This document shows positions 6,424-50,426 of a stretch of 64,000 bases of DNA, one piece after another. Source of the stretch: Patescibacteria group bacterium (GTDB lineage: Bacteria > Patescibacteriota > Saccharimonadia > Saccharimonadales > UBA4665); contig JBBTTF010000001.1 in NCBI GenBank assembly GCA_038064375.1, forward strand, positions 125,572 to 189,571, given 5' to 3'. Positions within the stretch are counted from its first letter, which is position 1, and the number at the start of each line of letters is the position of its first letter. Below the pieces are notes generated by a model. It saw only the letters and a program-made list of their open reading frames with translations, was not told the origin of the DNA and did not search any database. Both the position numbers and the translations under genes were made by a program.

Positions 6424-8349
6424 ATGTTGGGTCGTAAGAAACAGCCACCACTAGATCCTGTCGCTATCGCTCAGATGCAGCGGGCGCACGAGGAACAAGA
6501 GGTTCAGGCCGCCTTCCAAAAGGGCATTACGGCGCTGCGCGACTTTATCGCACCAAGCTCTTTGGAATTTAGTAGTACTCACTTTCAGCTAGGCACCCGT
6601 TATGCCAGAACCTACTACGTCTATGGCTACCCGCGGCAGCTTTACACCGGCTGGTTGAGCAGCATGGTTAACCTCGATGAAGTTATTGACATCAGTATGT
6701 ACGTTTATCCGGTTGAGAGTCAGGTTGTGCTGGAGAATTTACGCAAGAAGGTAACTCAGCTCGAGGCTGGTATTCAGATTGAGTCTGAGAAGGGTCACGT
6801 TCGTGATCCGGGCAAGCAGGCGGCGATTCAGGACGCCGAGGAAATGCGTGATAAGTTGCAAGTTGGCGAGGAACGCTTCTTTAGGTTTGGCCTGTACTTT
6901 ACGCTCTACACGAGCAGCTTGGAAGAGCTGGAGTTTGTGTCCCACAAGGTGGAGTCGATGCTTGGTCAACAGCTTGTTTATAGCAAAGCGGCGACTTCGC
7001 AACAGGAGCAGGGCCTGAATAGTAATGTTCCGCAACTTATTGATCAGCTGCAGATCAGACGCAACATGAGCACTGGCGCTTTGTCGACAAGCTTTCCTTT
7101 TACCAGTGCTGACCTGAGTCAAGACACCGGTATTTTGTACGGAATTAACATGCACAACTCCGGTCTGGTTATCTTTGACCGCTTTAGCCTAGAGAACGGC
7201 AACTCAGTGGTGTTTGCTAAGTCTGGAGCTGGTAAGAGCTTTACTGTTAAGCTCGAGGCTCTACGCAGCATGATGTTTGGTACCGAAATCTTTATTATTG
7301 ATCCTGAGAACGAATATCAACGTATGTGTGATGCGGTTGGTGGCGCCTATGTTCGGCTTAGCCTAAACTCTTCGACACGTATTAATCCTTTTGATCTGCC
7401 TAAGGTTGTTGATTCTGATGAGGCCGATAATGCACTGCGCAGCAACCTTATAACCTTGCATGGATTGCTGCGACTGATGATGGGCGGAGCACAAGTTCAA
7501 TTACAAGGCTCAGCGGGCATGATGGCGCCAGCTCTATCGCCTTCAGAGGAAGCCGATCTCGACGCCGCCTTGATCGAGACCTACGCCAAGGCCGGTATTA
7601 CCAATGATCCGTTGACCCATAACGCTCAGCCGCCAGCTATTGTTGATCTTTATGACACCTTACTACACATGGGTGGTACTGGGCCGCAACTGGCTCAACG
7701 CCTTCGCAAATACACTACAGGCACTTTTGCAGGCATCTTCTCGCAGCAGAGCAACATCAACATCGACAACCCGCTTGTTGTCTTTAATCTTCGTGACCTT
7801 GAGGACGAACTTCGTCCCGTGGCCATGTACATCGTCCTTAATTACATCTGGAATAAGACCAAGAGCGATCAAAAACGACGACTATTGATCGTTGATGAGG
7901 CGTGGCAACTGATGAAGTACGAAGACTCGGCTAACTTCTTATTTAGCCTTGCTAAGCGAGCTCGTAAGTACAACCTTGGCATAACTACTATCTCGCAGGA
8001 CGTTGAAGACTTCATGGGATCACGAATGGGTCGAGCGATTGTGGCTAACGCCTCAATGCAATTCTTGCTTAAGCAGTCGCCGAGTGCGGTTGATGTGTTG
8101 AGTGACGTCTTTAAGCTAACTAGTGAGGAGCGTAAGCGGTTGAGTCAGTTCCCAGTCGGACAAGGATTGTTCTTTGCTGGTCAAAACCACGTTCACATTC
8201 AGATCGTGGCCAGTCCGACCGAGACCGGACTTATTACAACCAATCCAGACGAAATCCAACAAATGGCCGCCTCAGAAGCTGGGGGCGAACTAGACCAGCC
8301 ACAGGGAACCATCGACCTCAACAACCGACTGTATCCCGGTGGCGTATAA
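6424..8349 (+). CDS. virB4: VirB4/TrsE/PrgJ-type T4SS ATPase (part 2: middle domain plus ATPase domain)
   Basis: Walker A is FAKSGAGKSFTVK and Walker B is RRLLIVDEAWQL. The preceding segment FIAPSSLEFSSTHFQLGTRYARTYYVYGYPRQLYTGWLSSMVNLDEVIDISMYVYP is typical of the VirB4 middle domain. A GGGAG Shine-Dalgarno sequence lies 11 nt upstream. Confidence 0.85.
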   Translation: MLGRKKQPPLDPVAIAQMQRAHEEQEVQAAFQKGITALRDFIAPSSLEFSSTHFQLGTRYARTYYVYGYPRQLYTGWLSSMVNLDEVIDISMYVYPVESQVVLENLRKKVTQLEAGIQIESEKGHVRDPGKQAAIQDAEEMRDKLQVGEERFFRFGLYFTLYTSSLEELEFVSHKVESMLGQQLVYSKAATSQQEQGLNSNVPQLIDQLQIRRNMSTGALSTSFPFTSADLSQDTGILYGINMHNSGLVIFDRFSLENGNSVVFAKSGAGKSFTVKLEALRSMMFGTEIFIIDPENEYQRMCDAVGGAYVRLSLNSSTRINPFDLPKVVDSDEADNALRSNLITLHGLLRLMMGGAQVQLQGSAGMMAPALSPSEEADLDAALIETYAKAGITNDPLTHNAQPPAIVDLYDTLLHMGGTGPQLAQRLRKYTTGTFAGIFSQQSNINIDNPLVVFNLRDLEDELRPVAMYIVLNYIWNKTKSDQKRRLLIVDEAWQLMKYEDSANFLFSLAKRARKYNLGITTISQDVEDFMGSRMGRAIVANASMQFLLKQSPSAVDVLSDVFKLTSEERKRLSQFPVGQGLFFAGQNHVHIQIVASPTETGLITTNPDEIQQMAASEAGGELDQPQGTIDLNNRLYPGGV

Positions 8350-8388: not shown

Positions 8389-11300
8389 ATGCCAAACAAA
8401 GTCTATGACCCCGAGACTGACGATGAGTCGGTCGATGGCGTTTCCAGTCTAGGTGCCGGTCACGACCGAGCAGCTGGGATAGCGGGCGACCCGCGCGGTG
8501 AAAATGTGGCGGCGGGTGATCCTTCTGACCCTCGTGGCGATGGTTTAAGTCGTAGCGGCCTCCTTCGTAGTGAGAACGAGGCCGTGGGCGACCCTTCTGA
8601 TCCTCGTGGTGATGAGGCCAGCGTTGATCCAGAAGGCCTAAATGAATCCGAGGCGGCGGCTGGTGGCTATGCGCCAAATTATGATTCTAGCCAAAAGCAA
8701 TCCCGTGGCGAGCAGGCAAGGTCTTTTGGTAAGAGAAATCGTGGCAAACTTCTTATTTTTGGCACTTTGGGTGGCACAAGCGTCATCTCAATCGTGATTG
8801 GTATGTTTACGCTTATCCCTCTTAAGATCGAGCACATGGTCTCAAACTTGGACGACAGATTCTACTCAGCGGCTAACGAGGCCGTAGGGGAGATGACTCA
8901 GCATCTGACGAGCCACTATATAAGAAAATATGTAATCCCAGCGTACAAAAACTGCGGTACGACGATTGATAGACACTGTAAAGTGGCGATAGGCGGCGGC
9001 GGGAGTAACCCCGTAACGAACATGTATAGATCGTGGGCGAAGGCAAGATTTGAGAATGATCTTTACTACAAATACCAGATTGAGTTTAAGTTTGATACGG
9101 CTAGTGGTAAATGGCGTATAGTAGACCATCGACCTGGAGGTACTAGCACAGACATTGGCAAGAATGGTGAGCATTTCGACGATTTGATGAGCAGAAAAGA
9201 TCGCAAAGAGGTGTTCAACAGACTATTGGATAGTGTAGATGGCATGACCAAGCGCGAGAAAGTCCAATACCGATACAAGATGGGTACTTTAGTAGATAGA
9301 ACATGGGGCACGACTCGGTGTATGTTGTACTGTGCTCTTAAGAAGAAGGTGCTGGCACCAGTTAAGGAGGCGAAAAAGGCGGCCAAGTACTTGCTTGCAG
9401 AACGTGTCCTTGCGCCACGAAGCGAGCTAACAGCCATCGCTATGGCCTGCTTTATTAACCCCGACTGCCAGCCCGATCATACTAAAGTAGACCCTGACAA
9501 CCCAGACAAACCGCCAAGCGACGGAACAACCGATGAGCAGAGAGAAAAGCTTAAAGCCATGGCGGCGGAGCATGGGCTAAATGCTGGCGACACAGAAAAG
9601 CTTATAAAGCTACACGCTGAGATGTCAGAAAACGGCTTTCAAAATTATCTAATCAAAAAAATGACAACTACTTTCGTCAAGGGAGCTGCGGGCGACGTTG
9701 CTGCCAAAAGAATATCTGGCGCCATACCCTATATTGGCTGGATAGACCTAAGTGCGAGAACGATTGATGCCGCCAGCAACGCAGGACCCAAGATAAAGAA
9801 GTTGGGCTATATGGTTGGAGCGGCCTCTGCCGTCCAAGTCTACATGGAATATCGTACTTATGCCGACGAGGCGCATACCGGCAATGTTGATCCTGTAGAA
9901 ATGGGGTCAATGGCTGACTCACTTGGAAAGGGAGTCGAGGATCCAAAAGATCCGTTAGTGGGCGGCACTGCCAGCGCCGAAGAAGCACCTTTGTACAACG
10001 AGCTTGTCAACGGCGGCGGAGCTCCGGCCCAATCTCCTAACTACCTCTGCAACAACGGCAAGCCGCCCGCTACTGGTAAGCCTTGTAGCGAAGAGATGTT
10101 GGGACAGGGCGGTAATGGGGTTGCTAATGCGGTTAGCGATTTTGTGAACTCGCCAGGTGTTGATGTGCTGGTTACCACCGCCAAATTATGGAAAGCCACC
10201 GTGGGCAAGCTCTTTGACGCTGTAAACTGGCTAGCTAGCGAGACAATCGGGGGCGCCGCTGGCGTGGCGCTTAAGGCTGTAGATGCTGGGTGTAGCGTAA
10301 AAATACCCGTTCCCTTTGCACCCGATATTTATCCAGCCAACGCAGCCTTGCTCAACTTCCCCTTCTGTCAAACAATTGACAAAGCCAAAGAGATTACGGA
10401 GCTAACCATAAAAGGCATAACCAACTACCTGCTGCCGAATGCTCTCGGCAGCAACATGGGCGGCGGTCGAACATTCACACTTATGGCAGCAGGCTCTAAC
10501 GTAGCGGCTAATGATACTTGTGAGCAAATGGGCTGCCAAGCCGTTGATGATACTACAGCCACTGCTATCATAAATAAGCAAAGGGACAAAGCACGTGAGG
10601 AGTTCGCGAGGCAACCTTTCTTTGCTCGTATGTTTAGTACTGATAGTTCTTACTCATTAGTTTCCAAGATGGCGATGGCAACACCTTTTGACATGCGCAG
10701 CTCCGCCGCAACAAGTGTGGCCAGTCTACTGAGCAATCCTTTTAGTGTTTTTGGCAATAGCTTTGGGTCTATTGTTGGCGGGCGGGCTTCCGCAGCAAAC
10801 GGCACTACGCCAGACCCATTTGGAATCGGGAACCAAGCATTCCCGTCAAGCAAAATACCCGATAACCCAGAGGCTTACTGGAACGCCAACAATTGCGGTG
10901 ACGAGACCGAAAGCGGACCAATTGCTCAGTGGCAAAAAGCAGCGGCCTCACCTGACGGCAATGGACCAACCAACGAGAACACGGGCATGCCTGTTCATGT
11001 AGACTCTGAGCCATGCTTACTTATAAAGTACTCGACAGGAGTTAACGGAGGATTCTTCGACAAAGATAATTTGAACGAGGAAGATTTGGCTGAATTGCCG
11101 GGCGCAGGCAGTACCGCAGCCAGTAGCACTGCAACCGAAAAAATAGACATGGACACTCTTTTTGAATCTTCAGCAAACGTAGGCTGTGCTGAGAACACCA
11201 AAGATATTGGCGTTGAAGACGGCTATACCAACGGCAAAAAAGTCAGAATTCGTCTATGTGCGATCTCTAATTTGCCGAGTAGCGGCGAAGAATCAAGTGG

Positions 11301-11664
11301 TGGTTACGGCATAGAGGGCGCTGATGGCAAGTGCATAATAAACTCTCGGGCTTCCGGCGCTGTTTATGCGATGGTTGCCGAGGCAAAGAAGGCAAAAGTT
11401 ACGCTATCTGCTAACAGCTGTTTTAGAACCATGAATCACCAAAAAGCTTTGTGGTCACAATACGGTATGGATCCCGCAAGAGTCGCAAGACCAGGATATT
11501 CTAACCACCAAATGGGTCTTGCCATAGACATTAGTGGTCTGCCAGGGGATCCTGGACCTGTAAGTGGCAGTAAAGTATGGGCTTGGCTCAGCAAAAACGC
11601 CGACAAGTTTAGTTATAAGAATTACCCAGCGGAAGCATGGCACTGGTCGCCAACAGGAAATTAA
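8389..11664 (+). CDS. 1091-aa membrane-anchored protein with C-terminal M15 (VanY-type) peptidoglycan peptidase domain
   Basis: The acidic N-terminus carries repeats, followed by one TM helix (LLIFGTLGGTSVISIVIGMFTLIPL, preceded by KRNRGK). The C-terminal ~130 aa carry the zinc-peptidase M15/VanY motifs PGYSNHQMGLAIDI (SxHxxGxAxD) and AEAWHWSP (ExWH). The gene sits directly downstream of VirB4. Confidence 0.75.
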   Translation: MPNKVYDPETDDESVDGVSSLGAGHDRAAGIAGDPRGENVAAGDPSDPRGDGLSRSGLLRSENEAVGDPSDPRGDEASVDPEGLNESEAAAGGYAPNYDSSQKQSRGEQARSFGKRNRGKLLIFGTLGGTSVISIVIGMFTLIPLKIEHMVSNLDDRFYSAANEAVGEMTQHLTSHYIRKYVIPAYKNCGTTIDRHCKVAIGGGGSNPVTNMYRSWAKARFENDLYYKYQIEFKFDTASGKWRIVDHRPGGTSTDIGKNGEHFDDLMSRKDRKEVFNRLLDSVDGMTKREKVQYRYKMGTLVDRTWGTTRCMLYCALKKKVLAPVKEAKKAAKYLLAERVLAPRSELTAIAMACFINPDCQPDHTKVDPDNPDKPPSDGTTDEQREKLKAMAAEHGLNAGDTEKLIKLHAEMSENGFQNYLIKKMTTTFVKGAAGDVAAKRISGAIPYIGWIDLSARTIDAASNAGPKIKKLGYMVGAASAVQVYMEYRTYADEAHTGNVDPVEMGSMADSLGKGVEDPKDPLVGGTASAEEAPLYNELVNGGGAPAQSPNYLCNNGKPPATGKPCSEEMLGQGGNGVANAVSDFVNSPGVDVLVTTAKLWKATVGKLFDAVNWLASETIGGAAGVALKAVDAGCSVKIPVPFAPDIYPANAALLNFPFCQTIDKAKEITELTIKGITNYLLPNALGSNMGGGRTFTLMAAGSNVAANDTCEQMGCQAVDDTTATAIINKQRDKAREEFARQPFFARMFSTDSSYSLVSKMAMATPFDMRSSAATSVASLLSNPFSVFGNSFGSIVGGRASAANGTTPDPFGIGNQAFPSSKIPDNPEAYWNANNCGDETESGPIAQWQKAAASPDGNGPTNENTGMPVHVDSEPCLLIKYSTGVNGGFFDKDNLNEEDLAELPGAGSTAASSTATEKIDMDTLFESSANVGCAENTKDIGVEDGYTNGKKVRIRLCAISNLPSSGEESSGGYGIEGADGKCIINSRASGAVYAMVAEAKKAKVTLSANSCFRTMNHQKALWSQYGMDPARVARPGYSNHQMGLAIDISGLPGDPGPVSGSKVWAWLSKNADKFSYKNYPAEAWHWSPTGN
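8485..8614 (+). repeat. three in-frame copies of a GDP(SDP)RG(D/E) peptide motif (two near-identical 28-nt DNA copies)
   Basis: ggtgatccttctgaccctcgtggcgatg (8515..8542) and ggcgacccttctgatcctcgtggtgatg (8587..8614) both encode GDPSDPRGD. A degenerate copy, ggcgacccgcgcggtgaaaatg (8485..8506), encodes GDPRGEN. Confidence 0.8.
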
Positions 11665-15789: not shown

Positions 15790-16059
15790 TCAAGTATTAA
15801 TAACTAAATTATTTAAATAAAATCGTCGCTCGTTGTTATAGGTCGTGTGGAAACCTTGTAAAACTTGACCAGCAACAGACACAAAAAAGCTTTTTAGGAT
15901 GTGGGAAACACCTCGGAAAAGACCGGCTAACAACACGTATAACCCCACCAAACTATCAACACCCGCGCCAAGTGCACCAGCCATGGCTGTGCAAACACGA
16001 CCTAATTGACCACAAACACTGAACAGGCCACCCACAACTAATACACAGTTTTTACGCAT
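15790..16059 (-). CDS. possible 89-aa small hydrophobic protein filling the dnaA-dnaN spacer (doubtful)
   Basis: ATG 16059..16057 overlaps the last codons and the stop of dnaA (ATGCGTAA). The ORF ends at TGA 15792..15790, next to the dnaN ribosome-binding region. The sequence is Gly/Val/Leu-rich with 2-3 hydrophobic segments, and many codons start with G (GTT, GGT, GCT), which is coding-like. The same DNA carries degenerate DnaA-box-like 9-mers and an AT-rich end, so it may instead be origin DNA. Confidence 0.3.
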   Translation of the reverse strand: MRKNCVLVVGGLFSVCGQLGRVCTAMAGALGAGVDSLVGLYVLLAGLFRGVSHILKSFFVSVAGQVLQGFHTTYNNERRFYLNNLVINT

Positions 16060-17464
16060 ACAAATGCTCCTTGATTTCGCTGATTGCCATGCGCAAAGAT
16101 GCGTCAGTCCGAGCCTCTTCGTCTATTTTGTGTACAGAGTGAATGGCGGTGGTGTGGTCTTTGCGGCCAAGCTCACGAGCAATCTTAGGGAAGCTAAGCT
16201 TGAGCTCGTTACGTAGTATGTACATAGCGACTTGGCGCGGTACAACAATGTCTTTATCGCGCTTAGGACCAACAATATCCTCGTATGGTATCTGGAAGTG
16301 GCGGGCGGTGCGCTCAATTACCTGCTTGGCGCTAAGGTGCTTAGGTCGAACCTTGCTGACGTTGAGTAACCCGGTTGCAATATTGAGACTTGGCTCTAAG
16401 CCGCGCATCTCACAGTAAGCCATGAGTTGGTTGAGTGCACCCTCAAGCTCACGGATGTTGTTTTGAATATTAGTTGCTAGGTATTCGACGACGTCGTGAT
16501 CGAGTTCGTCAAAGTGGCCTTGAGCCTTGGTCTGTACGATTGCGCAACGTGTCTCAAAGTCAGGGATCTGCATGTCGATGCTCATTCCGCCAGCAAAGCG
16601 AGACCTTAAGCGGTCTTCTAGTGTTGGAATATCTTTTGGCGGCTTGTCTGCACTGATAATAATTTGCTTATTGGCTTGGTGAAGGGCATTAAAGGTGTGG
16701 AAGAACTCCTCTTGCATCTTCTCTTTGCCAGCAATGAACTGAACATCATCAACGATCAAAACATCAGCTGTTCGATAGTGACTAGCAAAAGCAGCGGTCT
16801 TACGGAATCTAAGCGCATCGACAAACTCCTGCACAAACTGCTCGGTAGATATGTATAAGACTTTAGCGTTGGGGTCGCGGGCAGCCAAGATGTTGCCAAC
16901 AGCCTGAATCAAGTGAGTCTTACCAATACCAACACCTCCATATAAGAACAGTGGGTTGTACTTGGTGCCCGGCTGACTTGCCACGGCTTGGCAAGCTGCA
17001 AATGCCAACTCATTACTACCACCAACAATAAAACTGTCCAGTGTGTAGCGCTCATTAAGGCCTTGTCGGTATGAGTGAGCGAGGCCACCGCCCAATGTTC
17101 CTTGGGTTCGTTTGGCTGCTGGTTCTTCTGTTGTAGTTTGTGGGCTGCTTGATTGTTGCGCTTGCTCGCTGTGAGACTCGCTCGCTGGGGTGTGTTTTGC
17201 ACGAGGTTTATCAGCATGTGTCGAGATAATCTTATACTCGATACCCTTGGAGGTTAGGCCATTCTTGGCTAGAGTTTCGACGATGACATCGCCATATTTG
17301 CGCTCAAGCTGTTGCTTGATAAAGATGTTGTTAACACCAATGGTAATAGTTTCGTCGGAGTGTTTGAGCAGACTGGTGCCTTTGAACCACGTCACAAAAT
17401 TCCCGTGCGAGACCGATAGTTCAATCTCTCCCAGAACCGCTTGCCACAACGCGTCTTGCTGCAT
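16052..17464 (-). CDS. dnaA: chromosomal replication initiator protein DnaA
   Basis: The AAA+ Walker A is LYGGVGIGKTHL and Walker B is VLIVDDVQF. The C-terminal DnaA-box-binding helix is GRKDHTTAIHSVHKI. A strong GAGGAG Shine-Dalgarno sequence lies upstream. The protein is 470 aa. Confidence 0.96.
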   Translation of the reverse strand: MQQDALWQAVLGEIELSVSHGNFVTWFKGTSLLKHSDETITIGVNNIFIKQQLERKYGDVIVETLAKNGLTSKGIEYKIISTHADKPRAKHTPASESHSEQAQQSSSPQTTTEEPAAKRTQGTLGGGLAHSYRQGLNERYTLDSFIVGGSNELAFAACQAVASQPGTKYNPLFLYGGVGIGKTHLIQAVGNILAARDPNAKVLYISTEQFVQEFVDALRFRKTAAFASHYRTADVLIVDDVQFIAGKEKMQEEFFHTFNALHQANKQIIISADKPPKDIPTLEDRLRSRFAGGMSIDMQIPDFETRCAIVQTKAQGHFDELDHDVVEYLATNIQNNIRELEGALNQLMAYCEMRGLEPSLNIATGLLNVSKVRPKHLSAKQVIERTARHFQIPYEDIVGPKRDKDIVVPRQVAMYILRNELKLSFPKIARELGRKDHTTAIHSVHKIDEEARTDASLRMAISEIKEHLYA

Positions 17465-47233: not shown

Positions 47234-47713
47234 ATGAACGAAAAGCAAACATCCGCCCAAAAATCAGTCCGACCAACCAAGAAGCAAAAAGAGCTGTTAG
47301 ATTTTATCAGCTCGTTTATTGCTGAGCATGGCTATAGCCCCAGTTACCGCGAGATAATGAGTGGCCTTAGCTACAACTCTGTGGCGACAGTCTCGCTGCA
47401 CGTCAACAGCCTTATTAAGCGCGGTCATTTGCGCAAACGGGATCACTCCGCACGGTCGCTAGAGGTTGTTCAGTCGTCGTCAGAGTCAGCGAAGATTGTT
47501 TCGAACCAGATAGCACCAAGTGAAGAAAAGTGGCTAGTCGAGAAGGTCGAACACGCCTTCCAACAAGTTGAGAATCTCGGTGGTGAGCTTGCCGAAGCCG
47601 GCTTTGATCATCTCTACGTATTGATCGGTGCGCTAAAGGTCTTGGGTCTAGAAGGTGCCGCGCAGAGCTTCATGCCACGATTAACAGCGCTCAAGCAACG
47701 CCAAACCACCTAA
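47234..47713 (+). CDS. LexA-like winged-helix DNA-binding protein lacking the S24 peptidase domain
   Basis: LexA N-terminal-domain pattern: TKKQKELLDFISSFIAEHGYSPSYREIMSGLSYNSVATVSLHVNSLIKRGHLRK. The remaining ~85 aa have no Ala-Gly cleavage site and no Ser/Lys dyad context. An AGGA ribosome-binding site is present. Confidence 0.65.
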   Translation: MNEKQTSAQKSVRPTKKQKELLDFISSFIAEHGYSPSYREIMSGLSYNSVATVSLHVNSLIKRGHLRKRDHSARSLEVVQSSSESAKIVSNQIAPSEEKWLVEKVEHAFQQVENLGGELAEAGFDHLYVLIGALKVLGLEGAAQSFMPRLTALKQRQTT

Positions 47714-47784
47714 ACTACGAAGAGTATTTGCAGTAATTAATACTATATCTAGCGTAGCGACGGCCTGCTACACTACTAAATAGT

Positions 47785-47890
47785 AAAGGTGAGTTAACAA
47801 ACAGATGCTGGAATCCCGTGTAATTCGGGAACTGTGCCGCAACGGTAAATCCTCTGGTCAACCCATGCAGGAAAGTCCGATACAGCTGAC
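47785..47890 (+). promoter_or_regulatory. cobalamin (B12) riboswitch-like aptamer, compact form
   Basis: GGUGAGUUAA...GCUGGAAUCCCGUGUAAUUCGGGAACUGUGCCGCAACGGUAAA (core 47807..47849) parallels the E. coli btuB leader GUGAGUUAAUAGGGAAUCCAGUGCGAAUCUGGAGCUGACGCGCAGCGGUAAGG as I remember it, including the 4-bp stem with a 7-nt loop (CCCG-UGUAAUU-CGGG). A B12-box-like AGUCCGAUACAGCUG lies at 47874..47888. GCUG (47807..47810) can pair with CAGC (47883..47886) as a closing stem. Confidence 0.6.
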
Positions 47891-47938
47891 AAAAAGTCTC
47901 TCGAGCAAGAGCAAATGAAGCCCTAACCGTCTTCTTAG

Positions 47939-47969
47939 CCCTCGCTCGATAGAGTAGAGGGTATTTTTT
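47939..47969 (+). terminator. intrinsic terminator / SD-sequestering hairpin (riboswitch expression platform)
   Basis: The hairpin is CCCUC-G-CUC GAUA GAG-UA-GAGGG, followed by UAUUUUUU and then directly by the ATG at 47970. The 3' arm GAGGG is the only Shine-Dalgarno-like element for the downstream CDS. Confidence 0.6.
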
Positions 47970-49550
47970 ATGGCCGTTGCAGCCGCCGAGCAAATCAATT
48001 ATTCATCAGGTACAGAACAGCCGCATCTAGCTGAAGCTGTTCAGCGACCAGCCGCAATCCTAGTATCCGAACTGACTGGATACGAGTTTATACAGCGACG
48101 AGCTGACCGTTTTGTTAGTCAAGCAATCGGTTCTGTCGCTTTATCCGCAGAGGTCGAGAAGTCACACGAAAACCGTCCTATAACATCACTCCATGACGCT
48201 ATTCATCGTGCCCCAACAGAGTCGGAGGCGCGCAAGGTGGTTTACGCCAATGCAGCCTCTGACGTCATTGAGAGGACTCTCAAGACTGGCCATGTACGAT
48301 CAACCATAATGGAGGTTGATGAAGATGGCGTAATACAGCAGCATGGCCAGAGCCTTGAGTCGGTTCAGGCCAACAGTCTTCTCTATACGACTGATGAATG
48401 GAAGATGCGTGAGCGAACCGTCGCCGAGGCAAACAATGCAATTAGAATGCAATGGCTACATTCACAGGGTCTACTCGAAGAATATAGTTTTGTGACCATA
48501 TCTTGTGCAGCAGACAATATGAGTGTTCAAGAAATGAAGGACAACGGCTTCTTTACGGATACTATGAGCTTATCCATACAGGCAACCGGCTCGAGAGAGA
48601 CGACTGTCACTACGGAGTCTGCTTTTGCTTCTGGGGTTAAGTCTCCAAATGCACCAAGACACGATCTGCAGGCAGTTGTAGCCTTGGCCAAAAAGTACAA
48701 CATTGACCTGACAGGTAAGTCGGCAGCCGAAATTATTGATACGCCGTTTCTTGTTCGGAACGATTTGATACCCAACGGGGTAGTTGATTTGGTCAGAGAT
48801 TTTGACGATTGTGTCGACAGTACTGGCAACACTTTCTTTGGAGAGGATAGACCCCGCCAAGACTATATTGAGTATCTACGATCTTGTAGTCAGCGCGAAA
48901 AAACATTCCAATCAAAAGTCGAGTTAATCACACAGGATCTAATTAATCAGAGACATACGATTAATACACCTATGGATGCTATTGAAAGACTCAATGAACT
49001 ATCTGAGGAGTATATGGTTTTGAAGGCCGTAGAGGACACCTCAATTAACCCTCAGGTCTTTGGTCCAGTTTCTGCTGGGCATATTGAGCAAGCTCGAGCC
49101 CACGCAGCTTTGGGTAACAAAGAGCTTAGTCGGGCGGCAACCAAGAAAGCTATAGAAACAGCCGATTCTGATTCTTGCTCAGCAGTTTATAAGAAAAACG
49201 CCGCCAAAGAGCCAGACGAAGGCATAGAGGGCTCATCAAAGGAAGAATGGCATAGCGGCAAAATATTTCGTAACACCAAATGCAAATCCTGCGACAAAAC
49301 CAAAAAAGAAGTAGGCGCATGTCATATTTGCGAGGATTGCGTTAACAACCCGACAAAGCGAGAAAAAAAGTACAATCAGTACAAGGCTGACCAAAAAGCT
49401 AAGCAAGCAAACTCGAATATATTTTTACTAGGGCTTAATAACAACAAGCCACCCAAAAAACTTGCGGATGTAATCTCTCTAGCAGAAAAACGTCGAGCAA
49501 AGATTGCAAATGAGCGTAAAGCTGCCAAGCTGGCAATGCAGGCTGCTTAG
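47970..49550 (+). CDS. hypothetical 526-aa soluble protein with C-terminal CxxC...CxxC zinc-ribbon-like motif and Lys-rich tail
   Basis: A clean ORF immediately after the riboswitch terminator. The Cys4 motif is TKCKSCDKTKKEVGACHICEDC. No TM segment, signal peptide or recognisable enzyme motif. Confidence 0.6.
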   Translation: MAVAAAEQINYSSGTEQPHLAEAVQRPAAILVSELTGYEFIQRRADRFVSQAIGSVALSAEVEKSHENRPITSLHDAIHRAPTESEARKVVYANAASDVIERTLKTGHVRSTIMEVDEDGVIQQHGQSLESVQANSLLYTTDEWKMRERTVAEANNAIRMQWLHSQGLLEEYSFVTISCAADNMSVQEMKDNGFFTDTMSLSIQATGSRETTVTTESAFASGVKSPNAPRHDLQAVVALAKKYNIDLTGKSAAEIIDTPFLVRNDLIPNGVVDLVRDFDDCVDSTGNTFFGEDRPRQDYIEYLRSCSQREKTFQSKVELITQDLINQRHTINTPMDAIERLNELSEEYMVLKAVEDTSINPQVFGPVSAGHIEQARAHAALGNKELSRAATKKAIETADSDSCSAVYKKNAAKEPDEGIEGSSKEEWHSGKIFRNTKCKSCDKTKKEVGACHICEDCVNNPTKREKKYNQYKADQKAKQANSNIFLLGLNNNKPPKKLADVISLAEKRRAKIANERKAAKLAMQAA

Positions 49551-49572
49551 TTTGAGCTCAACAGACTATAAT

Positions 49573-50184
49573 ATGCCCATGACTCACAAGACACACCGCA
49601 GAATAGGTATCTACGCCGGCACCTTCGATCCAGTGCATTCCGGCCACGTAACCTTTGCCCTGCAAGCCCTGCAAGCTGCCAACCTCGACAAAGTTTACTT
49701 CTTGCCAGAGCGTCAACCGCGCAACAAGCAGAACGCCGAGCATTTTGGCCATCGTGTGGCCATGCTCAATCGAGCCATTAAGCCCCATCCGCAGTTCGAC
49801 ATAATCGAGCTAGTTGATGTTAACTTTAGCGTTGATAGAACGCTTCCCAAGTTGCAGAAGCAATTTGAAGATGATCAACTGGTGTTTTTATTTGGATCCG
49901 ATGTATTGGCGGGCCTGCAATCATGGCCAAAAGTTGAGAGGTTGCTGTCAGAAACCGAACTTGTGATTGGTCTAAGGCATCAAGATAGCCGTGAGGATAT
50001 GCACAAACTTATCGAAGCATGGCCACTGCAGCCAAAAGTGCTGACTATGTTCCCGAGCTATGCCCCAGAAGTGTCATCAGGCCGTGTTCGTGAGGCGCTG
50101 CGCGAGCGCAAACCAACCAATGGAATCCTGACCAGCGTAGAGCGCTACAGCAACAAAAACTGGCTCTACGTCTCTCTTACCTAG
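49573..50184 (+). CDS. nadD: nicotinate/nicotinamide-nucleotide adenylyltransferase (cytidylyltransferase fold)
   Basis: The start at ATG 49573 (MPMTHKTHRRIGIYAGTFDPVHSGHV) carries the (H/T)xGH motif. A C-terminal EVSSGRVREAL (SxxxxR motif) is also present. The track ORF start at 49504 would overlap the previous gene. Confidence 0.7.
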   Translation: MPMTHKTHRRIGIYAGTFDPVHSGHVTFALQALQAANLDKVYFLPERQPRNKQNAEHFGHRVAMLNRAIKPHPQFDIIELVDVNFSVDRTLPKLQKQFEDDQLVFLFGSDVLAGLQSWPKVERLLSETELVIGLRHQDSREDMHKLIEAWPLQPKVLTMFPSYAPEVSSGRVREALRERKPTNGILTSVERYSNKNWLYVSLT

Positions 50185-50213
50185 TTGACAGAGCTTAAGC
50201 GTATTGATAGTAT
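50185..50213 (+). promoter_or_regulatory. near-consensus sigma70-type promoter with no annotated gene downstream (TTGACA, 17 nt, TAGTAT)
   Basis: TTGACA is at 50185..50190, beginning 1 nt after the nadD stop. TAGTAT is at 50208..50213. Confidence 0.45.
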
Positions 50214-50219
50214 AGGTGC

Positions 50220-50420
50220 ACTTCATTGATTCGCAATCTAGCATTTCATGAGAGACAAAAACTACAACTAAAAAAGTTCGTATGCGACAGGCATTGTTGT
50301 GCGTTGTCGCGGTGACAGTGAGAGGGAAAGTGTCCGTAAAAATAAAGATAGTTAAGACGCCCGAAGTTCGGGTTAAAGTCCATGTTAGCCGCCCTGAGTG
50401 GCGTGAATTTTTGTCCTACT
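50220..50420 (+). ncRNA. candidate ~200-nt small RNA (or tiny-ORF transcript), identity unknown
   Basis: It lies between the 3' ends of convergent nadD and the DsbA-like gene. It contains several tight hairpins: GCGACA-15 nt-UGUCGC at about 50285..50311 and CCCGA-AGU-UCGGG at about 50360..50372. It ends in a weak CGCC/GGCG hairpin followed by UGAAUUUUU. It did not match RNase P, SRP, tmRNA or 6S motifs that I can recall. Confidence 0.3.
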
Positions 50421-50426
50421 AAGTTA

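What the first reader, a model, noticed from the sequence alone, without database searches (positions are those of the whole stretch)
47785..49550. Compact cobalamin-riboswitch-like leader whose terminator hides the SD of an uncharacterised 526-aa Cys4 protein
The 256-nt gap after the LexA-like gene is not empty. Its core, GCUGGAAUCCCGUGUAAUUCGGGAACUGUGCCGCAACGGUAAA, follows the conserved cobalamin-aptamer pattern (GGAA, a stem with a 7-nt GUG.AAU-type loop, then C.G..CCGC.AC.GUAA). Even the upstream GUGAGUUAA is shared with the E. coli btuB leader as I recall it. A B12-box-like AGUCCGAUACAGCUG follows, and GCUG/CAGC can close the aptamer. At only about 80-105 nt, it resembles the short class-II/AdoCbl-variant forms.

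Downstream, a hairpin (CCCUCGCUC/GAGUAGAGGG) followed by UAUUUUUU ends immediately before the ATG at 47970. Its 3' arm, GAGGG, is the only available Shine-Dalgarno sequence, so both transcription and translation could be gated.

The controlled gene encodes a soluble 526-aa protein with no motif I recognise apart from a C-terminal CKSC...CHICEDC zinc-ribbon-like motif and a Lys-rich tail. It is not a known B12 transporter, a B12-independent isozyme or a cobalamin-biosynthesis gene. It is therefore a candidate new B12-related function (binding, scavenging, trafficking or regulation) in what seems to be a metabolically reduced organism. nadD follows directly downstream and may be co-transcribed.
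Basis: partly seen in the sequence, partly recalled or inferred. Interest (0 to 1): 0.7.

Follow-up and report, generated by a model that had tools for sequence, protein, structure and literature searches.

The report
B12 riboswitch controlling orphan Saccharibacteria gene
The gap before this gene holds a genuine vitamin-B12-sensing RNA switch that very probably turns off a protein of unknown function and unrecognised fold, found only in the tiny parasitic Saccharibacteria, which marks that protein as a likely new player in B12 biology.

Summary
Window 47793..47913 (+) is a cobalamin-clan riboswitch. On its own it misses Rfam's threshold (RF00174 22.7 bits against 31.5). However, orthologous leaders before the same gene in 7 of 23 Saccharibacteria genomes pass curated thresholds (AdoCbl-II, Cobalamin). 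A covariance model built without the window scores it at 108 bits (E 4e-24), the only hit in 64 kb.

The helices covary: 95.5% of cells are paired, against 30-49% in slid controls, and 10 of 19 pairs show double changes.

The expression platform matches the experimentally validated P. megaterium metE design. L13, CG(A)GCA, is complementary to L5, UGCCG. The 3' half of P13 can pair with the 5' arm of the terminator as an antiterminator. The terminator's 3' arm, GAGGG, is the Shine-Dalgarno sequence, and its U-tract abuts the ATG. The architecture is that of an OFF switch.

The same aptamer core precedes standard B12 genes elsewhere (DUF4430, BtuF, adenosyltransferases, CbiX, NrdD).

The 526-aa protein is soluble, folds confidently (pLDDT 86.6), and has no match in Pfam, NCBIfam, PHROGs, PADLOC, PDB or BFVD. 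A very divergent second form fills the same slot behind the same riboswitch in related genomes. Its function is unknown but very probably B12-related.

The parts
47740..47774 (+). Conserved upstream box AATACTATATCTAGCGT-N13-TGnTACACT. It is a likely extended -10 promoter (TG 47766-67, TACACT 47769-74), which puts the transcription start near 47781. TAGCGT/ACACTA form an imperfect inverted repeat that could be an operator.
   Evidence: Conserved in about 20 of 24 orthologous leaders whatever the upstream gene. The promoter assignment is inferred from the consensus only. The sigma-70 scan, which requires a -35 match, did not list it.
47793..47890 (+). Cobalamin aptamer. Elements: UUAACAA (47794-800); closing helix P3 47807-10/47883-86; P4 47814-18/47826-30 with T-loop-like L4 GUGUAAU; P5/L5 47833-41 (L5 UGCCG 47835-39); P6 47843-45/47877-79 with a 31-nt insert in its loop (47846-76, inner stem UCCU/AGGA); B12 box AAGUCCGAUACAGC 47873-86.
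   Evidence: RF00174 22.7 bits, E 7e-4. Covariance model R1 108.2 bits, E 3.9e-24, all 19 pairs standard. Helix assignment taken from the Rfam structure lines and predicted identically by RNAalifold. Covariation.
47898..47911 (+). P13 regulatory hairpin CUCU-CGAGCA-AGAG. L13 CG(A)GCA is complementary to L5 UGCCG (5 bp with one bulged A), making it the kissing-loop partner. Its loop and 3' half also form the 5' strand of the antiterminator.
   Evidence: The stem covaries (CUCU/AGAG, CUCC/GGAG, CUUC/GAAG, CUUU/AAAG). An L13-type hairpin is present in 60 of 77 metagenome loci with this core, against 4.25 expected and 0 of 78 upstream. The hairpin alone is only -2.7 kcal/mol. Mechanistic precedent: PMC10327014.
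47901..47949 (+). Antiterminator (ligand-free state): UCGAGC.AG.GC (47901-12) pairs with GC.CU.GCUCGA (about 47938-49), enclosing the small middle hairpin 47917-34.
   Evidence: It is the minimum-free-energy structure of the nascent RNA up to 47950-52, at -15.6 kcal/mol. Cognate pairing across loci is -10.1 against -8.9 kcal/mol for non-cognate (6 of 10000 permutations) and -6.8 for shuffled. L014 shows a compensatory change, CGCGC with GCGCG.
47938..47969 (+). Intrinsic terminator and SD sequestor: stem 47938-47/47952-62 (10 bp, A47956 bulged), loop GAUA, then A + UUUUUU (47964-69). SD GAGGG 47957-61 lies in the 3' arm.
   Evidence: The consensus (A)GAGGGUAUUUUUAUG is kept in about 17 of 24 loci.
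47970..49550 (+). 526-aa orphan protein ('type A'): a conserved globular core (about residues 25-400), a disordered acidic/Ser linker, a Cys-rich zinc-ribbon-like module (C438, C441, C451, C454, C457) and a Lys-rich helical tail.
   Evidence: ORF. Family of 94 clusters at 90% identity and 448 at 50% identity; all 23 reference-genome loci and the few named clusters are Saccharibacteria/Patescibacteria MAGs. AF2 pLDDT 86.6, pTM 0.75. No match in any library. No TM segment or signal peptide.
49579..50184 (+). NadD-like nucleotidyltransferase, 28 nt downstream. It may be co-transcribed. A TATAAT hexamer lies just before its start codon.
   Evidence: Pfam CTP_transf_like 1.8e-17. NCBIfam nadD TIGR00482 107.7 bits, just under its cut-off of 112.45. 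It lies directly downstream in L024, L025/L026, L150 and L052, but is separated by one or two extra ORFs in L027 and L152.
47234..47713 (+). Upstream neighbour: a 159-aa protein with a LexA-type winged-helix DNA-binding domain only (no S24 peptidase domain). It is a syntenic partner of the locus.
   Evidence: Pfam LexA_DNA_bind 2.2e-14. NCBIfam lexA 56.3 bits against a cut-off of 110.95. Synteny.

Best explanation
Window 47793-47969 is the 5' leader of an mRNA that starts near 47781. It contains a corrinoid (vitamin B12) riboswitch of the cobalamin clan. The aptamer is compact and class-II-like, with a short insert in the P6 loop, and it is followed by a three-state expression platform.

With B12 bound (inferred), L5 (UGCCG) kisses L13 (CG(A)GCA) and locks the weak P13 hairpin. 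The downstream GC-rich hairpin plus U-tract then forms. It terminates transcription right at the start codon, and in any full-length transcript it buries the only Shine-Dalgarno sequence (GAGGG).

Without B12, P13 is not held. Its loop and 3' half pair with the 5' arm of the terminator as an antiterminator, so transcription reads through and the SD is free.

The switch is therefore an OFF switch. The 526-aa Saccharibacteria-specific orphan protein, and possibly nadD behind it, is made when B12 is scarce.

Shown here: membership of the RNA in the cobalamin clan, the covarying helices, the conserved platform, the complementarity of the alternative pairings, and the strict linkage of riboswitch and gene.

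Inferred: ligand binding, the sign and level of regulation, and the protein's role. By analogy with other OFF-regulated B12 regulon members, the protein most likely acts in corrinoid acquisition or intracellular processing, or substitutes for a B12-dependent activity.
For: (1) Cobalamin-clan hits lie on the same strand directly upstream of the orthologue in 11 of 23 genome loci. Seven are above curated gathering scores: AdoCbl-II 47.7, 44.2 and 41.4; Cobalamin 34.7, 33.6, 33.0 and 32.3.

(2) All 23 loci plus the window share one leader architecture.

(3) Covariation on an unfitted MAFFT alignment: 95.5% of cells paired against 30-49% in slid controls; 10 of 19 pairs with double changes; score 0.348 against 0.132, with 0 of 500 shuffles reaching it. 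RNAalifold predicts the same 19 pairs on its own.

(4) Covariance model R1, built without the window, gives 108.2 bits, E 3.9e-24, the only hit in the window. It also hits upstream of every type-A and type-B gene tested, in 17 of 17 sources.

(5) The same aptamer core in 80 metagenome loci precedes DUF4430 x9, Peripla_BP_2 x3, Cob_adeno_trans x2, CobA/BtuR, CbiX x2, NRDD and a TonB Plug.

(6) An L13-type hairpin is present in 60 of 77 loci, against 4.25 expected. L13 is complementary to L5 with one bulge, as described for env8HyCbl.

(7) Antiterminator: cognate pairing is stronger than non-cognate (6 of 10000 permutations), and L014 has a compensatory change. Window energies are -2.7 (P13), -15.6 (antiterminator) and -19.7 (P13 plus terminator).

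(8) L009 has no terminator. There the 3' arm of P13, GGAG, is itself the SD, 7 nt before the AUG, as in classical translational class-II switches.

Against: The window copy alone is below Rfam gathering (22.7 against 31.5). The leader's overall MFE is not unusual (z -0.68).

L5 is nearly invariant, so the kissing loop itself cannot be supported by covariation here.

Several orthologues (L005, L007, L012, L013, L023) lack a U-tract, so termination is not universal and SD sequestration may be the conserved mode.

No ligand-binding or expression data exist.

No B12-dependent enzyme or B12 transporter is encoded in the 64-kb window, and I found no literature showing that these organisms use B12.
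Confidence: 0.85

Rival explanations
1. The switch acts only on translation. The GC hairpin is an SD sequestor and the U-run is just an A/U-rich spacer, so there is no ligand-controlled termination.
For: Six of 24 orthologous leaders lack a U-tract, and L009 lacks the hairpin altogether and uses the 3' arm of P13 as the SD. A terminator that ends at the start codon is unusual. The terminator scan did not list the site.
Against: About 17 of 24 leaders keep 5-7 U directly after a GC-rich stem of 8-12 bp, which is the canonical intrinsic-terminator form. The antiterminator complementarity matches the transcriptional metE design.
Confidence: 0.2
2. The aptamer is real, but in these reduced epibionts corrinoid serves as a signal of the host or the community and not as a cofactor whose supply is being balanced. 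On this reading the protein has no biochemical link to B12.
For: No B12-dependent enzyme or transporter lies in the window or in any of the flanks examined. The gene sits in a housekeeping/cell-envelope synteny block. The central domain is replaced by a very divergent form in close relatives, which is unusual for a core metabolic enzyme.
Against: Every characterised gene behind this aptamer core is a B12 uptake, processing, biosynthesis or isozyme gene. Leaders with the same UUAACA and B12-box features also precede membrane-anchored DUF4430-type B12-binding proteins (L077), which suggests corrinoid uptake in the same or related lineages.
Confidence: 0.12
3. The resemblance is a decayed or chance cobalamin-like sequence with no regulatory function.
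For: The Rfam score for the window copy is sub-threshold. The MFE z-score is unremarkable.
Against: The leader is conserved across 23 genome loci and 13 metagenome loci at protein identities of only 35-50%. The helices show compensatory changes. The window-blind covariance model gives 108 bits.
Confidence: 0.02
4. It is an activating (ON) corrinoid riboswitch like A. halodurans cobT.
For: ON corrinoid switches exist and also use P13 and L13.
Against: In the ON design, P13 and the terminator share bases and are mutually exclusive. Here they are separate and compatible (47898-911 and 47938-62), and it is the antiterminator that competes with both.
Confidence: 0.03

Closest known systems
Priestia (Bacillus) megaterium metE corrinoid riboswitch (repressing, transcriptional; PMC10327014)
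   Same: The L5-L13 kissing loop stabilises P13. [quoted passage not shown] It is an OFF switch.
   Different: L5 here is UGCCG, not the consensus UCCCG, and L13 has a matching change plus one bulge. The aptamer is much shorter (class-II-like, small P6 insert). The terminator's 3' arm is also the SD and its U-tract abuts the AUG. The regulated gene is an orphan, not metE.
Rfam RF01689 AdoCbl-II (AdoCbl-variant, class-II cobalamin aptamers, e.g. env8HyCbl)
   Same: Same compact four-helix core (P3-P6), same L4 GUGAAAU and same B12 box. Three orthologous leaders score 41-48 bits, above the gathering score of 36.5. The kissing loop has a bulge, as in env8HyCbl. In L009 the 3' arm of P13 is the SD, as in env8.
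   Different: The window copy carries a 31-nt insert in the P6 loop and does not reach the gathering score of any clan member. Other orthologues carry inserts of up to more than 150 nt. Ligand selectivity (MeCbl/HyCbl or AdoCbl) is unknown.
Rfam RF00174 Cobalamin (class I, e.g. E. coli btuB leader)
   Same: The core sequence is shared, down to GUGAGUUAA...GGAAUCC.GUG.AAU...GCUG...GC.GC.GUAA. Four orthologues pass the gathering score of 31.5.
   Different: It lacks the long P6 extension and the P1/P2 periphery of class I. In the Rfam alignment of the window, 66 model positions are replaced by 12 nt.
Known B12-regulon proteins (BtuF/Peripla_BP_2, DUF4430, PduO/CobA adenosyltransferases, CbiX, NrdD, MetE)
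   Same: They occupy the same regulatory position, directly behind the same aptamer subtype.
   Different: There is no detectable sequence or fold similarity to any of them. The protein is soluble, with no TM segment or signal peptide, is found only in Saccharibacteria among the sequences sampled here, and has a tethered zinc ribbon.

Membership tests
Cobalamin riboswitch clan (Rfam CL00101: RF00174, RF01482, RF01689) | Score at or above the curated gathering threshold of a clan model | tested here: not met
   The window copy scores RF00174 22.7 bits against 31.5 (E 7e-4), and there is no gathering-level hit in the whole window. Orthologous leaders do meet it: 7 of 23 loci, namely RF01689 at 47.7, 44.2 and 41.4 and RF00174 at 34.7, 33.6, 33.0 and 32.3.
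Cobalamin riboswitch clan (Rfam CL00101: RF00174, RF01482, RF01689) | Conserved core: GGAA, P4 with a GUGNAAU loop, L5/P5, and a B12 box (AGYCMG...) closing P6/P3 | tested here: met
   All elements are present at 47811-47886 and nearly invariant across 24 leaders. They align to the Rfam consensus.
Cobalamin riboswitch clan (Rfam CL00101: RF00174, RF01482, RF01689) | Junction helices P3-P6 supported by covariation | tested here: met
   95.5% of cells paired, against 30-49% in slid controls. P3, P4, P5 and P6 each have at least one pair with changes on both sides (P4 has four of five). 0 of 500 shuffles reach the score. RNAalifold gives the same pairs.
Cobalamin riboswitch clan (Rfam CL00101: RF00174, RF01482, RF01689) | L5-L13 kissing loop linking the aptamer to the expression platform | tested here: inconclusive
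   L13 CG(A)GCA is complementary to L5 UGCCG (5 bp with one bulge). The L13 hairpin is 14-fold enriched downstream of this L5 (60 of 77 against 4.25). L5 is nearly invariant, so no L5/L13 covariation could be scored, and the tertiary contact itself cannot be tested with these tools.
Cobalamin riboswitch clan (Rfam CL00101: RF00174, RF01482, RF01689) | Association with B12 uptake, biosynthesis or isozyme genes | tested here: met
   This holds for the aptamer subtype: DUF4430, Peripla_BP_2, Cob_adeno_trans, CobA/BtuR, CbiX, NRDD and Plug lie downstream in metagenome loci. The window's own gene is unannotated.
Cobalamin riboswitch clan (Rfam CL00101: RF00174, RF01482, RF01689) | Direct, selective binding of a corrinoid | not testable with these tools
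   This needs in-line probing, ITC or a reporter assay.
AdoCbl-II / class-II aptamer (RF01689) | No P6 extension: a short 7-nt P6 loop | tested here: not met
   The window has 31 nt between CGG (47843-45) and CCG (47877-79). L012, L014 and L015 have the 7-nt loop and pass the gathering score.
Intrinsic (Rho-independent) terminator | GC-rich hairpin immediately followed by a U-tract | tested here: met
   47938-47962 (10 bp, 7 G-C pairs, -15.4 kcal/mol with its flanks), then A + U6. The consensus scan did not list it. Actual termination was not tested.
Any described B12-related protein family, or any Pfam/NCBIfam/PHROG/PADLOC family | Significant profile or fold match | tested here: not met
   Zero families in Pfam, NCBIfam, PHROGs and PADLOC. 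PDB sequence search best E 0.042. Foldseek against PDB and BFVD best E 0.04-0.1 with TM about 0.1. The AlphaFold DB was not available.
LexA repressor (upstream gene) | N-terminal LexA DNA-binding domain plus C-terminal S24 autopeptidase domain | tested here: not met
   Only PF01726 is matched (residues 15-74). TIGR00498 scores 56.3 bits against a cut-off of 110.95. The protein is 159 aa.

The most novel reading that the evidence does not exclude
The riboswitch marks a previously undescribed superfamily of B12-related proteins, found here only in Saccharibacteria. It has two very divergent forms, 'type A' (this 526-aa protein) and 'type B', which share only the N-terminal motifs, a GGxF/WxxGxxxP..DY motif, an SxxCP motif and a tethered zinc ribbon. 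The fold has no relative in the PDB or BFVD. The protein would carry out a new step of corrinoid handling (intracellular capture, trafficking, reduction, adenosylation or remodelling), or it would replace a B12-dependent reaction in organisms that live off a host's metabolites.
Probability: 0.45. Interest if true: 0.75.

Novelty: new member of a known kind. Interest (0 to 1): 0.55.

Why it matters
There are three reasons.

(1) In the paper library available here I found no report of a cobalamin riboswitch in Saccharibacteria or Patescibacteria. This one is conserved across the sampled lineage. It implies that these ultrasmall epibionts monitor intracellular corrinoid, which bears on the open question of what they take from their hosts.

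(2) The strict pairing of the riboswitch with an orphan protein gives that protein a testable functional label, 'B12 regulon, made when B12 is low'. The pairing holds in every locus examined, for two very divergent protein forms in the same syntenic slot. Few conserved Patescibacteria genes of unknown function have such a label.

(3) A recent perspective noted that inducible expression tools are lacking for Patescibacteria and proposed riboswitches as candidates (PMC11665869). A native, compact leader of about 190 nt that responds to a cell-permeable vitamin is an obvious part to try.

The RNA itself is ordinary for its class. The interest lies in the gene it controls and the organisms that carry it.

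Tried and rejected
- Rfam at gathering level on the whole window gave nothing. It was replaced by comparative analysis.
- Single-sequence MFE and z-score of the leader were uninformative (z -0.68).
- The promoter/terminator consensus scan missed both the conserved extended -10 box and the bulged terminator.
- Protein annotation returned nothing usable. Pfam, NCBIfam, PHROGs and PADLOC gave 0 families. The PDB profile search gave only spurious Cys-rich matches.
- Foldseek against PDB and BFVD gave no hit with E <= 0.001. Repeated low-ranking rows for flavin monooxygenases and phage portal proteins have TM about 0.1 and rmsd of 18-30 A, so I rejected them as noise.
- The exhaustive HMM search returned only family members in the 150 rows shown. 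The weaker part of the 448 hits cannot be inspected.
- Gene neighbourhoods hold no B12 genes.
- The ten largest ORFs of the window contain no RNR and no other B12 enzyme.
- Literature searches for B12 use, B12-dependent RNR or riboswitches in Saccharibacteria found nothing relevant.
- Comparing A2 with single type-B proteins by hhalign gave only local, weak matches. Pooling them gave 83% probability over 72 columns, so the homology is probable but not proven.
- An outer P1 helix involving UUAACAA, as in the RF01689 consensus, was looked for by eye and with RNAalifold. It is not supported.
- Conservation of the MAVAAE N-terminus was considered as an RNA-level element. The codon comparison shows mostly protein-level conservation, so I dropped it.
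- The nadD/DsbA intergenic region was considered as a structured RNA and rejected.
Full report
**1. What is in the sequence**

- the core GCUGGAAUCCCGUGUAAUUCGGGAACUGUGCCGCAACGGUAAA (47807-47849)
- a B12-box-like AAGUCCGAUACAGC (47873-47886)
- GCUG/CAGC closing the element
- a GC-rich hairpin (47938-47962) followed by A + U6 that ends at the AUG (47970), with GAGGG (47957-61) in its 3' arm

The ORF encodes 526 aa with Cys at 438, 441, 451, 454 and 457 and a Lys/Arg-rich tail (26%). Its highest 19-residue hydropathy is 0.71, against 3.02 for the neighbouring DsbA-like protein, so it has no TM segment and no signal peptide.

In K-12 it sits directly before GGGAAUCCAGUGCGAAUCUGGAGCUG...GCAGCGGUAAGG. 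Across orthologues only UUAAC is conserved.

**2. Is it a cobalamin riboswitch?**

On its own the window copy does not pass Rfam. There is no gathering-level hit in the whole window. With permissive filters, RF00174 Cobalamin scores 22.7 bits against a gathering score of 31.5 (E 7e-4). The match covers model positions 48-166, with 66 model positions replaced by 12 nt. The MFE z-score is unremarkable (-0.68). The question therefore had to be settled by comparison with relatives.

The 526-aa protein has 94 homologue clusters, none with a useful name or a Pfam domain. A scan of reference genomes returned 23 loci, all from Saccharibacteria/Saccharimonadales MAGs.

Rfam finds a cobalamin-clan element on the coding strand immediately upstream of the orthologue in 11 of these 23 loci. 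Seven are above curated thresholds: AdoCbl-II RF01689 at 47.7, 44.2 and 41.4 bits (gathering 36.5), and Cobalamin RF00174 at 34.7, 33.6, 33.0 and 32.3.

Anchoring all leaders on UGCCGCAAC shows that all 23, plus the window, share one architecture. The variable part is an insert inside the P6 loop. It is 0 nt in the three AdoCbl-II hits, 31 nt in the window, and more than 150 nt in L008 and L010. That explains the window's poor Rfam score. It is too long in the P6 loop for RF01689, and it lacks the P6 extension and periphery that RF00174 expects.

I transferred the Rfam helices onto a plain MAFFT alignment of 22 leaders. The results:

- 95.5% of cells form standard pairs, against 30-49% when partners are slid by 1-3 columns.
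- 10 of 19 pairs show changes on both sides (53 cells).
- The covariation score is 0.348 against 0.132 in shuffles, and 0 of 500 shuffles reach it.
- Examples: P4 changes UCCCG/CGGGA to UCCUG/CAGGA, GCGGG/CCCGC and AUAGG/CCUAU. P6 changes CGG/CCG to CUG/CAG. P5 changes UGU/GCA to AGU/GCU. P3 changes GCUG/CAGC to GAUG/CAU and GCCG/CGGU.

RNAalifold predicted the same 19 pairs unaided.

A covariance model built from 21 orthologous leaders without the window finds exactly one match in the 64-kb window on either strand: 47793..47913 (+), 108.2 bits, E 3.9e-24, every pair standard.

**3. Independent check of ligand class through the regulon**

I scanned metagenomes with GTGNAAN8CTGTGCCGCAACNGT (19 specified bases). 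Only 5 have the 526-aa family downstream.

Among the 72 first downstream ORFs, the Pfam-recognisable ones are the standard B12 regulon:

- DUF4430 (9)
- Peripla_BP_2 / BtuF-type (3)
- PduO-type (2) and CobA/BtuR-type (1) adenosyltransferases
- CbiX (2)
- NRDD with an ATP-cone (1)
- TonB Plug (1)
- DUF6580, prenyltransferase-like and Fer4_16 proteins (1 each)

So this aptamer subtype is a corrinoid sensor wherever the regulated gene is interpretable.

**4. Expression platform and mechanism**

Eight to eleven nucleotides after the aptamer lies a small hairpin (window 47898-47911, CUCU-CGAGCA-AGAG). Its stem covaries and its loop is nearly invariant. A hairpin of this type (4-bp stem, loop CGNGC[AU]) follows the same core in 60 of 77 metagenome loci, against 4.25 expected from shuffles and 0 of 78 in the upstream control. 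It is therefore the P13/L13 element of cobalamin riboswitches.

PMC10327014 gives the L5 consensus as UCCCG. Here L5 is UGCCG (47835-39) and L13 is CG(A)GCA, which gives five Watson-Crick pairs with one bulged base. The same paper cites a bulged kissing loop for env8HyCbl.

The loop and 3' half of P13 are complementary to the 5' arm of the downstream hairpin. L001 has GAGCAGGAG opposite CUCCUGCUC. The window has UCGAGC/GCUCGA plus further pairs. Across loci, cognate pairings average -10.1 kcal/mol, against -8.9 for non-cognate (6 of 10000 permutations do as well) and -6.8 for shuffled sequence. In L014 the bulged loop base changes A to C together with U to G in the terminator arm. That is the behaviour expected of a base that is free in the kissing loop but paired in the antiterminator.

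In the window the energies are:

| Structure | Energy (kcal/mol) |
|---|---|
| P13 alone | -2.7 |
| Nascent RNA up to 47950-52 (MFE is the antiterminator) | -15.6 |
| Complete platform (P13 + terminator) | -19.7 |

This is the model that compensatory mutagenesis established for the P. megaterium metE riboswitch. [quoted passage not shown] P13 and the terminator do not share bases, so the architecture is of the repressing type and not the activating type described in the same paper.

Two features are particular to this lineage. First, the terminator's 3' arm (A)GAGGG is the SD, and its U-tract is the SD-AUG spacer. The consensus AGAGGGUAUUUUUAUG is kept in about 17 of 24 leaders. One hairpin can therefore gate both transcription and translation. 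Second, some orthologues have no U-tract, and L009 has no terminator at all. In L009 the 3' arm of P13, GGAG, lies 7 nt before the AUG, which is the classical class-II translational arrangement. SD occlusion may therefore be the ancestral, universal mode, with termination added on top.

Upstream, a conserved AATACTATATCTAGCGT-N13-TGnTACACT box (window 47740-47774) looks like an extended -10 promoter. It would put the transcription start near 47781. This is inferred from the consensus only.

**5. The regulated protein**

AlphaFold2 with a 92-sequence alignment gives a confident model: mean pLDDT 86.6, pTM 0.75, and residues 25-400 mostly above 90. The model has an alpha/beta core, long helices, a disordered acidic/Ser linker (415-429), a two-strand zinc-ribbon-like module and two C-terminal helices.

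Nothing recognises it. Pfam, NCBIfam, PHROGs and PADLOC return no family. A profile search of PDB sequences gives only a spurious Cys-rich match. Foldseek against PDB and BFVD gives no hit with E <= 0.001, and the best rows have TM about 0.1.

An exhaustive HMM search finds 448 clusters at 50% identity (327 at E <= 1e-30). The 150 rows shown are strong matches, nearly all full length.

The alignment has many invariant or nearly invariant polar residues (E101, K105, Q124, N135, R149, E153, N156, S178, D279, plus C306, C403, C438 and C457). That looks more like an enzyme or a ligand-binding protein than a structural one. This reading is an inference.

The gene sits in a conserved chromosomal block: Wzy_C - GtrA - LexA-DBD protein - X - NadD-like - DsbA - CBS - AspRS. 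There are no B12 genes nearby.

**6. A second, very divergent form in the same slot**

Several metagenome loci with Saccharibacteria-style leaders encode a different protein of 445-521 aa (L052, L065, L080, L103, L108). In L052 the neighbours are close to the window's (LexA-DBD protein 72%, NadD-like 65%, DsbA 50% identity), yet the family HMM barely detects the protein.

It keeps four features:

- the N-terminal motifs
- a GGxWxAGRRP...DY motif
- an SxxC(P/G) motif
- a nearly identical SWHGGKIHKNSKCxSC...GACHICKDC ribbon (60% identity over 40 aa)

A pooled profile comparison gives 83% probability (E 8.6e-6) over 72 N-terminal columns. This 'type B' family has 91 clusters, none with a Pfam domain; the few that a source names beyond 'hypothetical protein' are Saccharibacteria. 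It occupies the same syntenic slot.

The covariance model finds the riboswitch directly upstream of every type-A and type-B gene tested: 17 of 17 sources, at 52-108 bits. The riboswitch is thus tied to the slot and to both protein forms.

**7. What the protein does**

This is not shown. The architecture indicates repression by B12, so the product is wanted when B12 is scarce. In this aptamer subtype's interpretable regulon, uptake and binding proteins dominate, followed by adenosyltransferases, CbiX and one B12-independent isozyme. For a soluble cytoplasmic protein with a tethered Cys-rich module, I rank the possibilities by judgement, not measurement:

| Possible role | Rough weight |
|---|---|
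| Intracellular corrinoid processing or trafficking | 0.35 |
| B12-sparing substitute for a B12-dependent reaction | 0.25 |
| Cytoplasmic component of uptake | 0.2 |
| Something unrelated to B12 chemistry, with corrinoid used as a signal | 0.2 |

I could not establish whether these organisms encode a B12-dependent enzyme. None is among the ten largest ORFs of the window, and the literature held here is silent.

**8. Comparison, novelty and verdict**

The RNA works like, and is homologous to, known cobalamin riboswitches. It is a new member of a known kind: a compact class-II-like aptamer with a variable P6 insert, and a P13/antiterminator/terminator platform of the metE type in which the terminator doubles as the SD sequestor.

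Formal Rfam membership fails for the window copy alone but is met by its orthologues. Ligand binding is untested.

The interest lies in the cargo and the host lineage. The cargo is a conserved, confidently folded orphan superfamily with no recognisable relatives, and B12 riboswitches had not been reported for this lineage in the library searched.

Confidence that this is a functional corrinoid-responsive OFF switch: about 0.85. Interest: 0.55.

Noticed in passing
window 47740-47776 (and the equivalent position in L001-L023): A strongly conserved box AATACTATATCTAGCGT-N13-TGnTACACTA lies about 20 nt upstream of the riboswitch. The second half reads as an extended -10 promoter. TAGCGT/ACACTA form an imperfect inverted repeat whose spacer is partly self-complementary and covaries (GUAGCG/UGCUAC in the window, GUGUCA/UGAUAC in L002). 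It could be an operator, possibly for the adjacent LexA-DBD protein, or a 5' stem-loop.
   Followed up: partly
L052 1726-3135 (oriented), L065, L080, L103, L108, L150-L152: A second orphan family ('type B', 91 clusters, no Pfam domain; the few named clusters are Saccharibacteria) replaces the 526-aa family in the same syntenic slot behind the same riboswitch. In L052 the neighbours are 50-72% identical to the window's, while the central ~300 aa of the protein is beyond HMM detection and only the termini and the zinc ribbon are kept. This is either domain replacement or extreme divergence inside one gene.
   Followed up: partly
window 47234-47713: The 'LexA-like' gene encodes only the LexA winged-helix DNA-binding domain (159 aa, no S24 peptidase domain; below the NCBIfam lexA cut-off). 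It is a conserved syntenic neighbour of the riboswitch locus and also matches phage repressor PHROGs (phrog_362).
   Followed up: partly
window 49551-49578 and 49579-50184: The NadD-like gene starts 28 nt after the orphan gene's stop codon, with no terminator-like hairpin between them. A perfect TATAAT hexamer lies a few bases before its ATG, so it could have its own promoter, possibly giving a leaderless mRNA, as well as read-through from the riboswitch-controlled unit. Its best NCBIfam nadD score (107.7) is just under the cut-off (112.45).
   Followed up: no
L029-L108 (metagenome loci with the same aptamer core): Roughly two thirds of the 72 first ORFs behind this cobalamin aptamer core have no Pfam family at E <= 1e-5. 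They include several singletons of 400-670 aa. This is a pool of further unannotated candidates for the B12 regulon.
   Followed up: no
window 1-64000: No Rfam family reaches its gathering score anywhere in the 64 kb, on either strand. That includes tRNA, rRNA and other housekeeping RNAs.
   Followed up: no
window 16052-17464 (-), 6424-8349 (+), 8389-11664 (+): DnaA is encoded here, so the window lies near the replication origin. Nearby are a TraG/VirD4-like P-loop ATPase and a 1091-aa protein with a C-terminal VanY D-Ala-D-Ala carboxypeptidase domain. Four ORFs of 545-786 aa have no Pfam match at all.
   Followed up: no
window 47970-47990 and the orthologues' first codons: The extreme N-terminus M-A-V/E-A-A-E is unusually conserved for a cytoplasmic protein, often with the same codons (AUG GCC GUU GCA GCC GA.). 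The conservation is mostly at the protein level. It is shared with type B (MAATAE, MGANAE). Its meaning is unknown.
   Followed up: partly
L012 3420-3488: A weak FMN riboswitch (RF00050) match (20.8 bits against a gathering score of 66.2) overlaps the AdoCbl-II hit. It is caused by the shared GGGUGAAAUUCCC T-loop hairpin and the GUCCG motif. It is a cross-match, not a second riboswitch.
   Followed up: yes
window 50185-50426: The convergent gap between the NadD-like and DsbA-like genes has a good sigma-70-like site (TTGACA-17-TAGTAT with TG) and a GAGGGAAAGUGUCCG motif. It has no Rfam match at E <= 1 and an unremarkable fold (z -0.52). Nothing was found.
   Followed up: yes
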